Of a stretch of 64,000 nucleotides of DNA, positions 1,642 through 46,356 are shown in pieces (position 1 is the first letter of the stretch; each line of letters opens with the position of its first letter). Source of the stretch: Octopus vulgaris (lineage: Eukaryota); assembly GCA_951406725.2 (NCBI GenBank), contig OX597817.1, positions 120,714,001-120,778,000 of the forward strand. Reading direction: 5' to 3'. Made by a program: the position numbers and the translations under genes. Below the pieces are notes generated by a model, which was not told where the DNA came from, ran no database searches, and was given only the letters and a program-made list of their open reading frames with translations.

Positions 1642-2085
1642 CAAGAAAGTAAATTTTGAATGCAGTAAAGCTAGCAGAGAAAGATTGAGTATTTACCCTT
1701 ATAAGATGGAAAAAAAAGTTGTCAGAAGGCAGCTACAGGACCTGTACCCCTCAGATACTGGCTGGATGCTCTAGCAATTAAGCTAAACAACTCCTACCCC
1801 ACGACAACAATTACCATCAAATTTAATACTAAATTATAGCTTTTAAATGAGACAACAGTTCATCAAGAAAGTAAATTTCGAATGCAGTAAAGCTGTGAGG
1901 ACAGCAGAGAATGATTGGGTATTTACCATTATAAGATGGGAAAAAGCTGCCAGAAGGCAGCTATGGGGCTTGAACCCATAACTGTCAGATACTGGCTGAG
2001 TGCTCTAGCCATGAAGCTAAATGGCCTCCTAGACAACAGTTACCATCAAATTTAATAATAAACTATAGCTTCAAATGTGACAACA
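1642..2085 (-). repeat. Tandem duplication of a ~222-bp unit, each with a tRNA-like sequence
   Basis: Units 1642-1857 and 1864-2085 both start caagaaagtaaattt and end gacaaca, and align throughout. Confidence 0.9.
1956..2026 (-). pseudogene. tRNA-like pseudogene or tRNA-derived repeat head (anticodon position reads AGT, Thr-like)
   Basis: Minus strand GGCCATTTAGCTTCATGGCTAGAGCACTCAGCCAGTATCTGACAGTTATGGGTTCAAGCCCCATAGCTGCC: A-box TAGCTTCATGG, stem TCAG/CTGA around CCAGTAT, B-box GGTTCAAGCCC, then TTTTT shortly downstream. Acceptor stem is mismatched. Confidence 0.55.
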
Positions 2086-33164: not shown

Positions 33165-34365
33165 TGTAGGCAGCTGGAAGAAATACCTCAATTTATGTTA
33201 TGGGTTCAAATACAGCTGAGAGCAACATTGCATTTTCACCTGTTTTAGGCTTGGTAAAAAAATAAAAGTACCTATAAAGTACTGGGATCACAGTAATTGA
33301 CTTCTTTTGTTCCCTCAAAATTGCTAACCTTGCACCGAAATTAGCATGCCAGACAAATTTCTTAGCAGTATTTCATCTGTTTTTGTGTTCTGAGGTCAAA
33401 TTCTACCAAGGTAGACTTTGCCTTTCATCCTTACAGAGTCAATAAAATAAGTACCAGATGAATCAATTAGTCCTGGCCCTTAAAATTCCAGGCCTTATTA
33501 AGGTAGAGAGCTGGCAGAGTAATTAAGCAGGCTGGGCAAAATGTTTATAGTATTTCTTCCAATTCACTAAGATCTGAGTTCAAATTCTGCCAAATTCAAT
33601 TTCATCTTTCATCCATTCAGGGTCAGTAAAAATAAGTACCAGTAGAACAACAGGGGTCAATTTAATTAACTACCCCACTCCTCCAACATTTCACACCTTG
33701 TGCCCATAGTAGAAAGAAATGTTATTACTATTAAATGGTTTCAAATTTTGGGGCTAGGTCAGTAATATTAGTTGGAGCAGGGTTAGTTGATTACATTGAG
33801 CCCAGTACTTAAATGTCACTTTATTCTATTGGCCCTAAAAGGATGAAAAATGAAGTTGACCCAGACCAGTTTGGAGCTCAGAATACTACTAATCATTTTG
33901 TCTGGCATGCTAACATTCTGCCAGCTTTCCCCCTTTATAATAATTTAAGCACAAGGCCAGCAATTTCAGAGGTGGTGGTTAAGTTGATTACACCGATCCC
34001 AGAGATCAAATGGTACTTATTTTATCGGCCCTAAAATGAGGGATGGCAAAATTAACCTCAGCAGCATTTGAATTCTCTATGTAAAGCTGGAAGAAATGCA
34101 GTGAAGCATTTTGTCTGGTGTGCTAGCATTTCTGTGACTTTGTCACCTTAATAGTAATAACAGTGGTTTAAATTTTTTGGCACAAGGCCAGCAATTTTGG
34201 GGGAGGGGTAAGTCAATTAAGTCAAATACATTGACCCCAGTACTCAACTGGTATGTATTTCATCGACCCTGAAAGGATGAAAGGCAAATTCGACCTTGCA
34301 GAGATGGATGAAATGCCACAAAGCATTCTGCCTAGCATGCTAATAATTTTGCCAGCTTGCTGCCT

Positions 34366-34366
<1 letters not shown>
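33165..34366. mobile_element. Cluster of ~6 family B SINEs (three +, then three -)
   Basis: Core ttcatcc/aagtacc on + near 33230, 33420 and 33610; ggatgaaa on - near 33840, 34040 and 34275. Confidence 0.75.
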
Positions 34367-34415
<49 letters not shown>

Positions 34416-36014: not shown

Positions 36015-36052
<38 letters not shown>

Positions 36053-36055
<3 letters not shown>

Positions 36056-36259
36056 AGAGTAAACACATAAATGTGAAACAAGGTGGAAAAAAGAGTACTC
36101 AAATACCAGTGATAGAGTAATATGCTTTATTCAAAAGCAGCAGAAAATTCAACAAAACCTATTACTCTGAGTTTCGCAAAAACTGTCTGACGAACGGGAA
36201 CGTGAAACTCAGAGTAACAGGTTTTGTTGAATTTTCTGCTGCTTTTAAATAAAGTATAT
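36053..36259 (+). mobile_element. Fold-back + tail element in (TA)n carrying an intact hammerhead
   Basis: Tail 36053-36119; inverted arms 36120-36175 and 36204-36259. Confidence 0.9.
36183..36220 (+). ncRNA. Type I minimal hammerhead ribozyme, canonical core
   Basis: CTGT CTGACGA ACG ggaa CGT GAAA CTC a GAG TA ACAG; all three stems pair; GUA triplet, predicted cut after 36216. Confidence 0.88.
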
Positions 36260-36438
36260 ACATATATATATATATATATATATTAGCGAGAAGTTGAGGT
36301 TATAAGAGATAATGGTGTCATTGAGACCCAACGGTGTCAGGTAATGCTGAATAAGTGCAATAGACACACCATAGTTAAGTTCCAGATTTGGTAATATTGT
36401 GAATAAAGGGTTCAACATTGGTTCTATGTCAGCATGTG

Positions 36439-36586
36439 TATATATGAATTTTTTGCATAATGAGATAAAAAAACCAAGGCTGTATAGATATTAGAGCATT
36501 TATAGATAGAAGGTCTTACAGCTTAATATCTCTAATATCTATACAGCCTTGGTTTTTTATCTCATTACACAAAAAATTCATATATA
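36439..36586. mobile_element. Fold-back element in (TA)n
   Basis: Arms 36439-36496 and 36530-36586; the spacer contains aggtcttacagct (reverse complement AGCTG-TA-AGACCT, the 3' end of an HHR). Confidence 0.8.
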
Positions 36587-39500: not shown

Positions 39501-40353
39501 CTTGTATGTATGTATGTCTGTCCGTATAACTTTTAGTAAAGCTCTGTAAAGCAAACAGAGCATATAGCAATTATCTGTCATGAAAAGTAGGAAGCAAATA
39601 GGTATTGTTAATTGGTTGTTTGATGCATAATAAACATCTAATTTAAGTCAGAATGTGACAAGGTATCATTTGTCAAGCTTATCACACAACAATAGTAGCA
39701 TCAGTATCTCAATGATAATTGCAATTTGCTTTCGCTAGAGATGTGATGTATACGTTATCAACTGTTGGGGTCATTGGTTGTGAAATTCTACATTATATCA
39801 ATGACATCACACTGTGTCCTTAGAAAACAGAGTGCTTCATTTTCATATACAATGAGAAATAAGAGGTTTGACTGAGTTTCTATAGCTCATCATTTATATC
39901 ATTTTAAGTTAGCTTGATTTAATGCTAAAGCTTAATGTGTCTGTTAGTGTGTGTGTGTTTGCGTGTGTTTGCACGTGTGTGTGTTTAGCGTGTATTTGTA
40001 CACACAAAGGAAAATTATAGTTGAGTTTGACAAGCAACAATACAAAGCTCAAGTGCTTTAGTAGCTTCTCCCTATTGTGGATTTACAGTATCACAAATCA
40101 TGCATGTGTGTACACACACACACACACACACACTTGTATATGTGTGTATATATATATGTATACATTCATACATATATATATATATATATTTATGAATGTA
40201 TGTGTATATTTACATTTATATATGTATGTACCTCATATACATTTATACATACATTTATATATATGCATATATATATTTATATATATGATTGATTGATTCT
40301 AGTTTCAGCTCATGAGCTGTGGCCATGCTGGGGCGTCTATATATATATATATA

Positions 40354-40526
40354 CTTTATTTAAAAGCAGCAGAAATATAAAAGCTGTTACTCAGAATTTC
40401 ACATGAAACTCTGAGTAACAGCTTTTGTTATATTTCTGCTGCTTCTAAATAAAGCATATTACTCTACCTCTGGTATTCGAGTACTCTTTTTTCCACCTTG
40501 TTTCACATTTATGTGCTTACTCCGGT
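40354..40526 (+). mobile_element. Fold-back + tail element (same family as 36053 and 46074), centre collapsed
   Basis: ctttatttaaaagcagcag...gttactcagaatttc-acat-gaaactctgagtaac...ctgctgcttctaaataaag plus a tail ending ttactccggta; embedded in (TA)n. Confidence 0.9.
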
Positions 40527-42377: not shown

Positions 42378-43465
42378 TTAAGCTTAAAACAGCTAAGAAC
42401 AACTATTCTTTAATTGTCTCAAAATACAATGACAATGTTATACTGTAATAAATGCAATTTTATTTCAGATCTGTTGCATTGTTCCATATCTAATTGTTTT
42501 CAGTTATAAATGAGCCAGATTCTCTACAATTTATTGTTATTTTAAATTGCTTGCATATCTTTGCTGTTTTATTTTATATTAATCTTTATTTTGAAATATG
42601 ATATTTCAAAAAAATATAAATTTTTAAAAACAAACAGTTTCAAGAAAAAAATTTTGTAAGATATATTTACTTTTACATTTAGATTTGCTTCTGATATGAT
42701 TTTCCTGTATTCTTTCCATATTTACAGTTTTGGGTATGGATGGATGTTTTAGAAGTCCATTTCATGACAACATGATTAGGGAGGTCAATACCACTACGCA
42801 GTACCTCGGGCAAGTGTCTTCTACTATAGCCCTGGTGTCACTAAACCCTTATGAGAAGATTTGGTGGATGGGAATGGAGGAAAGAAGGCTGTATTATATA
42901 AATGCATTTAAGCATGTGGAGGAGTAAGTGTGCATTCCTTTTTGGTTAAACCATAAATCTGGAACAACCACCATATATATATTCATAGGTGTGAGTGGAC
43001 AAACAAAAGAAGGGCACTCAACAACTTTATTGGGAATTACATGTATGGATCAAAACAGTTTGATTCAAATTTGTTGGTGCTCTGAGAGTTTCAACTATGA
43101 TGTTAATCTTCAGCCATTTTGAATTTGAATGAAAGAAGTTGATTGTTATTACTGTAAGGTGGGCTACAATTGGTCGAAGAAGGTCACGTGGTGTCATGGT
43201 TTGATGTTGGTATAACTGTATATCAGTGAAGACAGTTATTAGGAAATCACTGCATGGTGAACAGGAAATCAAACATGTGGTGGACAGGAAATCAGTCAGG
43301 TTGCTGGAGGGGATGTAGGGAGGGGTGGTATGCATAAGTATATAGTTGTGTATGTGGGTGTATGGATGCGCTTATATGGTTTTGCATGCATGTCTACATT
43401 GATACGAACATAGGCATCTGTACATGGGTGTGCATGTGCATGCCCCCCCCCCCACACACATATAT

Positions 43466-44155
43466 TTTCTGCCAGGATCAGATGATCAACACACGGAACA
43501 ACTGTTGGCTTGCTGTGTCCTCAAAACATGTACCAAGAGTGATAAAAATCAAACATCCAGTCAACATCATGGTGTTTGGAGTGATCACTAGTGATGGTGA
43601 CGTTATGCCTCCATTCATCTTCCCACATGACCTCAAACTCAACATGGAAGCCTTTGTCAAGTGCCTGGAGGAGGCAGTGCTGCCCTGGGTCAAGATGGTG
43701 ACTGCTGGAAGACTCTATGTCTGGCAACAGAACACTGCACCATGCCACACAAGCAGAAGAACCTAGTCATGTTTGTCAGACAATTTCTGTGACCACATCA
43801 CCCCTAACATCTGGTCAATTAATTCCCCAGACTGCAACACCCTTGATTATTATGTGTGGGGAACAGTTGAGTGAGAGACCAACAAAACTCCTTATAACAT
43901 CAAAGGTGAACTGAAGATAAGGATTATGGCAGCATTTAACAACTTAACCAAAGAAACCATCCATAAGAGTTGCAAGAGATTCTGAAGTTGTCTGGAGGCC
44001 GTGGTTGAAGCCAATGGTGATTTTATTGAAAAAATTTACTTTTTAGTATTTCAAGATATTTTTATGCAATTTTGGTAAATATACCTGTTAAAATAAGATG
44101 TCAGTGTTAGTTTTATTTTGCATAATTTAGATGACAATTTATTCATCACACCCTG
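43466..44155 (+). mobile_element. Tc1/mariner superfamily DD37D (maT-type) transposon, 3' half, pseudogenised
   Basis: IMVFGVITSDG...YVWQQ(N)TAPCH...WSINSPDCNTLDYYVWG with 37 residues between the 2nd and 3rd catalytic positions; in-frame stops; TIR end atcacaccctg|TA. Confidence 0.9.
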
Positions 44156-46015: not shown

Positions 46016-46071
<56 letters not shown>

Positions 46072-46073
46072 AA

Positions 46074-46356
46074 CTTTATTGAAAAGCAGCAAAAGTATAT
46101 CACAAATACTGTTACTCAGAGTTTCATGTTCCCATTCGCTGGACAGTTTTGTTTAGAATGGAATAGAAATAAGGTTATAAGCAAATTGCTTATAACCTTA
46201 TTTCTATTCCATTCTAAACAAAGCTATCTGATGAACGGGAACATGAAACTCTGAGTAACAGTTTTTGTGATATATTTTTGCTGCTTTTCAATAAAGCATA
46301 TTATTCTACCTCTGTTATTTAAGTAATATTTTTGCCACCTAGTTTCACATTTATGC
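46074..46356 (+). mobile_element. Fold-back + tail element: 223-bp palindrome with two opposed hammerheads
   Basis: Arms 46074-46184 and 46186-46296 centred on 46185; HHR (+) 46223-46262; decayed HHR (-) 46108-46147; tail to ~46356. Confidence 0.92.

What the first reader, a model, noticed from the sequence alone, without database searches (positions are those of the whole stretch)
36053..36259. Intact minimal hammerhead caged inside a fold-back hairpin
Seen: CTGT CTGACGA ACG-GGAA-CGT GAAA CTC-A-GAG TA ACAG at 36183-36220, with every core base and helix intact and CpGs retained (young). Stem III closes a 1-nt loop. The 3' half of the ribozyme (from GAAA onward) is nearly fully complementary to the upstream arm at 36120-36175. 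Established: hammerheads with such short helix III typically act as dimers. Inference: a read-through transcript would sequester the ribozyme in ~56 bp of dsRNA, while a transcript starting in the loop or an A-to-I-edited duplex could free it, giving a built-in off switch.
Basis: partly seen in the sequence, partly recalled or inferred. Interest (0 to 1): 0.7.

Follow-up and report, generated by a model that had tools for sequence, protein, structure and literature searches.

The report
Head-to-head Penelope retroelement stub with hammerhead
The hairpin and the predicted self-cutting RNA motif are real, but they are the ordinary stub of a Penelope-type jumping gene with thousands of copies: two cut-short copies of its end lie head to head in a TA repeat, so the 'cage' is likely a by-product of how the element inserts and not an evolved switch.

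Summary
The hammerhead motif (36183-36220) and the fold-back are present as described. They belong to a Hydra-clade Penelope-like retroelement: intact copies with a 727-residue RT/endonuclease frame carry the same hammerhead end, 86-97% identical to this locus. The locus is two 5'-truncated copies of that end joined head to head in (TA)n, a published layout; 4,579 exact family ends occur in the genome, and kilobase-long insertions have the same two-arm shape. The 'perfect' core is probably accidental: this subfamily reads CCGACGA in 413 copies and CTGACGA in 24, as many as the core-breaking CCAACGA (21), which is what CpG decay gives. Caging is predicted for a plus-strand read-through RNA, but release by editing or by a start in the loop has no support, and the freed monomer is not predicted to form helix III. 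Of some interest: every two-arm insertion I could classify pairs one short end with one long end (none matched), both arms share one template, and arms stop about 45 nt upstream of the cut site, not at it. This points to two reverse transcriptions of one uncleaved RNA. New family member of a known kind; low interest.

The parts
36019..36052 (.). Left (TA)n target microsatellite
   Evidence: 36019-36053, period 2
36053..36175 (-). Long arm: 5'-truncated copy of the element end, family positions -121 to 0 (ends at site B); holds only the 3' half of the hammerhead
   Evidence: 93-94% identical to most pLTR ends of intact elements; alignment
36053..36124 (-). 72-nt 'tail' between end site A and end site B, present on this arm only
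   Evidence: A end = -72, B end = 0
36176..36254 (+). Short arm: 5'-truncated copy, family positions -149 to -72 (ends at site A); holds the whole hammerhead
   Evidence: 89-94% identical to pLTR of intact elements; alignment
36183..36220 (+). Minimal type I hammerhead motif; predicted cut between 36216 and 36217
   Evidence: same helix I, helix III and GTA triplet in published Hydra-clade sequences
36188..36188 (+). U4 of the core; the subfamily majority has C here, so T is likely a CpG transition after insertion
36207..36215 (+). Palindromic helix III (ACTC-A-GAGT), suited to a two-molecule helix
36125..36254 (.). Element-derived duplex 36125-36175 with 36204-36254 (51 columns, mismatches at 36132/36247 and 36161/36218), 28-nt spacer
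36255..36283 (.). Right (TA)n target microsatellite
40349..40526 (.). Second family copy in the window: A arm plus B arm, neither with a whole hammerhead
46069..46355 (.). Third family copy (more diverged subfamily): near-perfect palindrome with a hammerhead motif on each arm, one with a broken core

Best explanation
This is a 202-bp stub of a Hydra-clade Penelope-like retroelement: two 5'-truncated copies of its hammerhead-bearing end lie head to head in a (TA)n tract, and the hairpin is likely a by-product of insertion, not an evolved switch. Shown: the parent family, the two fixed end sites (A and B, 72 nt apart), one A arm plus one B arm per two-arm insertion, shared variants between arms, and a pile-up of arm ends at -150 to -159. 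Inferred: the element's protein cuts both strands of (TA)n; each broken end primes reverse transcription on the same uncleaved RNA, one at A and one at B; when this happens in the first copy of the repeat near the RNA's 5' end (about -155) both cDNAs are short; their 3' ends are joined by end-joining, leaving a palindrome. The copy then decays neutrally, and its canonical U4 probably arose that way. A plus-strand read-through RNA is predicted to fold the ribozyme into dsRNA and stay uncut.
For: Parent: 20 of 20 fetched candidate loci carry long open frames next to the same end, 12 with a 727-residue frame; motifs RWK, DKT, YRDD, CxCX5C, CxxC, CxH (definition). Same two-arm shape at kilobase scale: 14 of the 20 loci have two arms in view and all 14 are A+B. 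B-end-selected sample: 59 A partners, 1 tiny A, 0 B partners, 20 no partner, 4 unclear, 6 out of view, of 90. Core-selected sample, read by hand: 19 A+B, 5 solo B, 4 solo A, 0 A+A or B+B of 28 distinct insertions. Arms share a template: 0-0.22% apart within against 0.78-1.25% mean between insertions; 13 of 298 variable-site comparisons discordant against 105 expected if independent. Run-off: 22 of 25 A arms and 18 of 37 B arms still running at -150 stop by -159; only 3 of 140 arms stop at -107 to -109. CpG symmetry 24: 21 against 413; in 8 of 11 informative CTG insertions the sister arm has C (two read by hand). Published layout: PMC8557442 (inverted 5'-truncated copy, tail at one end, (TA)n), PMC4209133 (paired minimal hammerheads on opposite strands), PMC11167929 (both strands cut and extended, two start sites, uncleaved RNA is the template).
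Against: The priming and joining steps are inferred from genomic copies only. The RNA start at -155 is not mapped; the self-complementary CTAG at -152 could raise junction frequency there by microhomology. Core positions change a little less often than other positions (3 of 534 against 43 of 4,636 outside CpG; 4 of 213 against 13 of 302 in CpG context): counts are too small to show or exclude weak constraint. In 3 of 11 informative CTG insertions both arms have T, so U4 here could be inherited (about 25-30%). The two arms of this copy differ at 36132/36247, where the minor letter also occurs in 4 of 101 other arms. Arm likeness could be raised by later gene conversion or by assembly polishing. 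PMC11167929 saw no difference in start site between top and bottom strands in vitro. Clade placement rests on motifs and by-eye comparison, not a tree.
Confidence: 0.88

Rival explanations
1. Same element, different chemistry: one cDNA is primed at site B, folds back on itself, is copied as far as site A and is resolved there by the endonuclease; asymmetric loops arise by trimming of the hairpin tip. (Rival for the inferred step only; the confidence is for that step.)
For: Explains one A plus one B and identical arms without further assumptions; 22 of 53 two-arm copies have equal 5' extents, several as loop-less palindromes; PMC8557442 attributes the tail to endonuclease-mediated resolution.
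Against: The A arm reaches further 5' than the B arm in 20 of 53 small copies (B longer in 11), in this locus (-149 against -121), and by more than a kilobase in L132, L143, L144; solo A copies exist (4 of 28).
Confidence: 0.25
2. One reading: the arm has been kept to hold the ribozyme off until editing or an internal start frees it.
For: The cage is predicted to be very stable; 27 of 53 two-arm copies have a whole hammerhead with a partner arm reaching past GAAAC; A-to-I editing targets repeats in animals (PMC9989829, passages read); the A-C mismatch at 36161/36218 lies within the caging segment.
Against: Junctions vary from copy to copy and many copies lack a partner or a whole ribozyme; core-restoring and core-breaking CpG changes are equally common; the freed monomer has P about 5e-5 of the hammerhead fold in a nearest-neighbour model; 8 of the 11 adenosines in the caging segment are on the ribozyme side; no arm with three or more A>G or T>C changes among 49 arm pairs.
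Confidence: 0.03
3. The 207-bp hairpin is a non-autonomous element (MITE or fold-back SINE) that is copied as a unit.
For: Outer ends are fixed and some junctions recur among the best genome matches.
Against: Arm extents spread from -31 to beyond -800; there are no terminal inverted repeats (the left 72 nt have no partner); the same ends bound full-length coding elements; subfamily marks and junctions are not linked one to one.
Confidence: 0.05
4. Assembly artefact (fold-back chimeric read).
For: Long-read data can create palindromes (own knowledge).
Against: Arms are unequal, differ at 2 of 51 positions and have different flanks; strand-internal junction contigs of the family occur in independent short-read runs (tables 5, 5c). 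No listed contig spans this particular locus, so the exact copy was not independently verified.
Confidence: 0.01

Closest known systems
Hydra-clade Penelope-like elements (Craig et al. 2021, PMC8557442; read: abstract, passages, section 11, supplement look-ups), including Hydra-1_Obim
   Same: Single frame with RT and C-terminal GIY-YIG-type endonuclease; RWK, DKT, CxCX5C, CxxC and CxH; (TA)n targets; hammerhead in the pLTR. Two Hydra sequences shown in the supplement carry the same TGTCTGA...GAAACTC-N-GAGTAACAG frame.
   Different: Not Hydra-1_Obim: its listed hammerhead has other helices. Repeat unit 3,354 bp against 'generally under 3 kb'; tail 72 nt against 30-40; the second linker Cys is Phe in 14 of 31 frames.
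Inverted 5'-truncated pLTR insertions with optional tail (PMC8557442 Fig. 2 legend; PMC4209133 'dual min-HHRs 100-700 bp apart on opposite strands'; parts 1-2 of 4 read)
   Same: Exactly this layout.
   Different: The papers say the tail is 'often' at one end only; here it was at exactly one end in every two-arm insertion that could be classified.
Poseidon element of Anolis, PAc (Frangieh et al. 2024, PMC11167929; parts 1-2 of 4 read, plus passages)
   Same: Two internal start sites that define the tail; AT-rich targets without homology; both strands extended; unprocessed RNA as template; hammerhead near the ORF start.
   Different: Other clade; start sites lie inside the ORF there and in the 5' UTR here; no strand bias in start site was seen in vitro; inverted products were not analysed in the text read.
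Minimal PLE hammerheads (Cervera and de la Pena 2014, PMC4209133)
   Same: Short helix I, palindromic helix III, predicted dimer; monomers showed no cleavage and dimers little.
   Different: Helix II is only 2-3 bp with a GNRA loop and lacks G10.1-C11.1; several subfamilies have C at position 4 (U4C lowers activity but is tolerated in a viroid; PMC3088659, passage).
Non-LTR retrozymes (bioRxiv 10.64898/2026.07.22.740005; part 1 of 5 read)
   Same: Non-coding, hammerhead-bearing, derived from PLE pLTRs.
   Different: Retrozymes are head-to-tail tandem arrays with a ribozyme per unit; this is head to head with one whole ribozyme.

Membership tests
Endonuclease-bearing Penelope-like element insertion | Sequence belongs to the pLTR of an element coding RT plus C-terminal endonuclease | tested here: met
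Endonuclease-bearing Penelope-like element insertion | Partial-tandem pLTR-ORF-pLTR structure in full copies | tested here: met
   3,354-bp unit flanked by the same end in L131, L133, L134, L142, L144, L149
Endonuclease-bearing Penelope-like element insertion | Inverted 5'-truncated copy adjoining the 5' end; tail at one end | tested here: met
   tail is 72 nt
Hydra clade | RWK motif and DKG changed to DKT | tested here: met
   P0001
Hydra clade | CxCX5C linker before the endonuclease | tested here: met
   intact in 17 of 31 frames from L131-L150, Cys to Phe in 14
Hydra clade | No CCHH; CxxC and CxH either side of conserved E and N | tested here: met
   read by eye in P0001
Hydra clade | Insertion into (TA)n and hammerhead in pLTR | tested here: met
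Hydra clade | RT phylogeny places it within Hydra | not tested
   only by-eye agreement with the supplement's alignment; Pfam 0 hits; no significant PDB hit
Minimal (dimeric) PLE hammerhead | Core C3 U4 G5 A6 N7 G8 A9, G12 A13 A14, A15.1-U16.1, H17 | tested here: met
   U4 probably secondary
Minimal (dimeric) PLE hammerhead | Palindromic helix III and loop 3 | tested here: met
   arms of the palindrome 96-100% conserved, centre variable, in 103 arms
Minimal (dimeric) PLE hammerhead | Self-cleavage as dimer or with protein | not testable with these tools
   needs bench assay; no pile-up of arm ends at the cut site
Canonical monomeric type I hammerhead | Stable helix III and G10.1-C11.1 pair | tested here: not met
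   helix III pair probability 0.00-0.03; 10.1 is A and 11.1 varies; no Rfam hit
MITE / fold-back DNA transposon | Terminal inverted repeats and a fixed unit copied whole | tested here: not met
Non-LTR retrozyme | Head-to-tail tandem units each with a hammerhead | tested here: not met
Known microRNA precursor | Rfam gathering score | tested here: not met
   best 45.9 bits against 140

The most novel reading that the evidence does not exclude
Hydra-clade Penelope elements insert by obligatory asymmetric twin reverse transcription: one protein dimer holds one uncleaved RNA and assigns start site A to one broken DNA end and start site B to the other, never the same site twice; initiation in the 5' repeat with run-off at the RNA's first base mass-produces the thousands of short hammerhead hairpins. 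This would explain the one-sided tail and the inverted copy of Penelope elements in a single mechanism, and shows the ribozyme is mostly uncut in the RNA that gets copied.
Probability: 0.5. Interest if true: 0.5.

Novelty: new member of a known kind. Interest (0 to 1): 0.22.

Why it matters
As a locus it matters little: it is one of many thousands of stubs. Its use is as a ruler for an open question that PMC8557442 names, how Penelope-like elements form inverted insertions with a one-sided tail. The strict A+B pairing, shared template and run-off point give predictions that an in vitro insertion assay can test. It also warns that a 'perfect' ribozyme core in one repeat copy can be made by CpG decay, and it shows a steady source of short dsRNA hairpins in this genome.

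Tried and rejected
Rfam at gathering score and at E up to 10: no hammerhead family. Pfam on the parent protein: 0 families; PDB sequences: 3 hits at E 0.17-0.58, treated as chance; the protein atlas gave no answer. Host gene context: 140 of 167 filtered open frames of 40 residues or more gave 0 Pfam families, so intron or intergenic status and the transcribed strand are unknown. Expression: no RNA holder listed as on record; runs guessed to be RNA exist only as contigs, which cannot show starts, strand or level; the A>G rows at 36112, 36417, 36434 and 36484 appear in all four runs laid, including the three large runs of unstated kind, and are taken as family variants, not editing; contigs of guessed-RNA runs cover 24-30 of 30 bins of an intact element, not used as evidence. 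Footprint of ribozyme cleavage in arm ends: looked for, not found. Fossil A>G hyper-editing: none in 49 arm pairs over an 80-nt segment. Microhomology priming at the ends with (TA)n: rejected, because the intact element continues CTAACC after B and CATATT after A. The automatic partner calls missed 7 A partners seen, and 7 of its 8 'tiny' calls were false; only calls of 15 nt or more were used, and pairing counts come. The first 30 matches were selected by likeness to the whole hairpin and were not used for pairing counts. Samples overlap slightly (L291 = L212; L347 = L133), and the 90 B ends are the first 90 on contig C1. Literature: searches showed no paper stating a strict A+B rule in the listings or the passages read; most subscription papers are not in the library, and supplements of PMC11167929 and of the bioRxiv preprint were not seen.

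Full report
Observation. The arms 36120-36175 and 36204-36259 are complementary with three mismatches, and the 207 nt fold at -90.4 kcal/mol, z -15.15. The unit sits between two (TA)n tracts. Rfam does not score it as a hammerhead, as expected for so short a motif.

It is a repeat. Two more copies lie in the window, at 40349-40526 and 46069-46355. In the 2.8-Gb genome G000 the 40 scored of 1,769 candidates matched nearly end to end at 87-100%. An exact 35-nt pattern for the long end plus target letters has 4,579 matches. One hundred 10-kb stretches taken at round coordinates held 9 family clusters in 999,700 bases, which scales to about 25,000 (Poisson 95% range about 11,500-48,000; my arithmetic). 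The organism is not given; earlier notes of this scan call the genome octopus-like, which I did not test.

The parent. Walking upstream from the third copy reached a fragment with a Penelope-type RT thumb motif. Searching with it gave 150 scored places, many in long open frames and often as inverted pairs. Twenty of these were fetched; all carry the finding's sequence next to the frame, at 86-97% identity to the two arms, and 12 hold a 727-residue frame. The unit is 3,354 bp: hammerhead, 5' UTR, frame, 3' UTR, hammerhead again. The protein has RWK, DKT, YRDD, a CxCX5C linker, CxxC and CxH around E and N, and no CCHH, the marks that Craig et al. give for the Hydra clade (PMC8557442 section 11). 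Their supplement lists an octopus member, Hydra-1_Obim, whose protein agrees by eye but whose hammerhead differs; two other Hydra sequences there share this family's helix I, helix III and GTA triplet. So this is another Hydra family. No tree was built.

Anatomy. With the long end as 0, the short end is -72, the predicted cut follows -109 and CUGA starts at -138. The locus is a minus-strand arm from -121 to 0 (36175 to 36053) joined bluntly to a plus-strand arm from -149 to -72 (36176-36254). The cage is simply the overlap of two copies of the same sequence. Craig et al. describe this layout, an inverted 5'-truncated copy with a tail at one end, and Cervera and de la Pena saw paired minimal hammerheads on opposite strands.

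A strict pairing. All 14 large insertions with two arms in view, of 20 fetched, have one A end and one B end. Of 90 insertions picked by the B end alone, 59 have an A partner, 1 a tiny A partner, 0 a B partner, 20 no partner, 4 an unclear partner, and 6 run out of view. Of 28 distinct insertions picked by the hammerhead core alone, I read 19 as A+B, 5 as solo B, 4 as solo A and none as A+A or B+B. The arms share a template: 0-0.22% apart within an insertion against 0.78-1.25% between, and 13 of 298 variable-site comparisons are discordant where 105 would be expected. Either arm can reach further 5' (A longer 20, B longer 11, equal 22 of 53).

Where arms stop. Of arms still running at -150, 22 of 25 A arms and 18 of 37 B arms stop by -159, with 16 stops at -152; only 3 of 140 stop at -107 to -109. 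Solo arms also stop in this zone. The A at -155 sits in an initiator-like YYANWYY context (motif recalled; sequence). I infer that the RNA begins near -155, that short hairpins come from initiation in the 5' repeat with run-off, and that the copied RNA is mostly uncut. The self-complementary CTAG at -152 may add to the peak. This fits Frangieh et al.: both target strands cut and extended, two start sites that define the tail, unprocessed RNA as the main template, and a hammerhead that cleaves only with the protein. They saw no strand difference in start site, so the strict pairing is an added constraint that I did not find in the texts read.

The 'intact, young' core. For the finding's 35-nt context the genome holds CCGACGA 413 times, CTGACGA 24 times, the core-breaking CCAACGA 21 times, and 26 with the neighbouring CpG changed (463 in all). 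Equal numbers on both strands are the signature of CpG decay. In 8 of 11 informative CTG insertions the sister arm still has C (two read by hand). The two closest genome matches have CCG. So the canonical U4 here is probably (about 70-75%) a later mutation. The youngest subfamily does carry CTGATGA (49 of 51 arms), while the others mostly carry C at position 4; U4C lowers but does not abolish activity in a viroid (PMC3088659). The CpG at the long end is also lost. The arms differ at 2 of 51 positions, against 2.0% on average in 49 small pairs and at most 0.22% in the intact family. Core sites change slightly less often than others, but the counts are too small to decide.

The switch idea. In a plus-strand read-through RNA the hammerhead fold is 33.7 kcal/mol above the hairpin ensemble, so caging is predicted. 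Without the arm, helices I and II form but helix III does not (P about 5e-5 for the whole fold), and the double-hammerhead dimer (-16.8) is above the best dimer fold (-27.2); such models omit tertiary contacts and protein. Minimal PLE hammerheads showed no cleavage as monomers and little as dimers. The caging segment has 8 adenosines on the ribozyme side and 3 on the other. The copy starts at -149, past the likely RNA start, although Penelope promoters can be internal. A whole hammerhead with a covering partner occurs in 27 of 53 two-arm copies: common, and explained by geometry. Public runs gave only contigs and nothing locus-specific. No host exon was identified.

Earlier notes. No earlier finding lies near or matches by sequence. 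By words, several AI reports read similar hairpins as ordinary Penelope stubs; they are leads, not support. One suggested arms from different parents for another family; in this family the arms are concordant. One reported fossil hyper-editing; I saw none in 49 pairs.

Verdict. Real feature, known kind, new family. The switch is unlikely (0.03). The by-product reading stands at 0.88; within it twin priming is favoured over fold-back by roughly 0.65 to 0.25. Interest 0.22, carried by the pairing rule and the run-off point.

Noticed in passing
window 36441-36584: A second, unrelated fold-back (about -72 kcal/mol) lies just right of the finding, with high contig depth in public runs, so it is another repeat family.
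   Followed up: no
L351 (G000:C12:81790350): A solo A arm of the youngest subfamily preceded by a different fold-back element; its junction recurs as a loose end in contigs of 3 of 4 guessed-RNA runs, perhaps a well-transcribed, uncaged copy.
   Followed up: partly
L131-L150: A very young autonomous family: arms 0-0.22% apart, many intact 727-residue frames; a Cys/Phe polymorphism in the zinc-finger-like linker splits the copies 17 to 14.
   Followed up: partly
L261-L350 hammerhead arms: U4 goes with A at position 11.1 (49 of 51 arms) and C4 with G, T or C there: possible linked evolution of core and helix II among source elements, or plain shared descent.
   Followed up: no
L008, L009, L015, about 1800-1950: Three duplicated loci carry a different GIY-YIG fragment (CxxC..YIGQT..H, Neptune- or Naiad-like by recall) directly beside the hairpin.
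   Followed up: no
window 43338-43766 (+): Open frame that looks by eye like a Tc1/mariner transposase fragment; Pfam gave no hit.
   Followed up: no
window 1642-2085: Two 228-nt tandem units overlapping a weak tRNA-like hit at 1955-2026 on the minus strand.
   Followed up: no
window 33389-34373: Cluster of diverged SINE-like copies in direct and inverted orientation.
   Followed up: no
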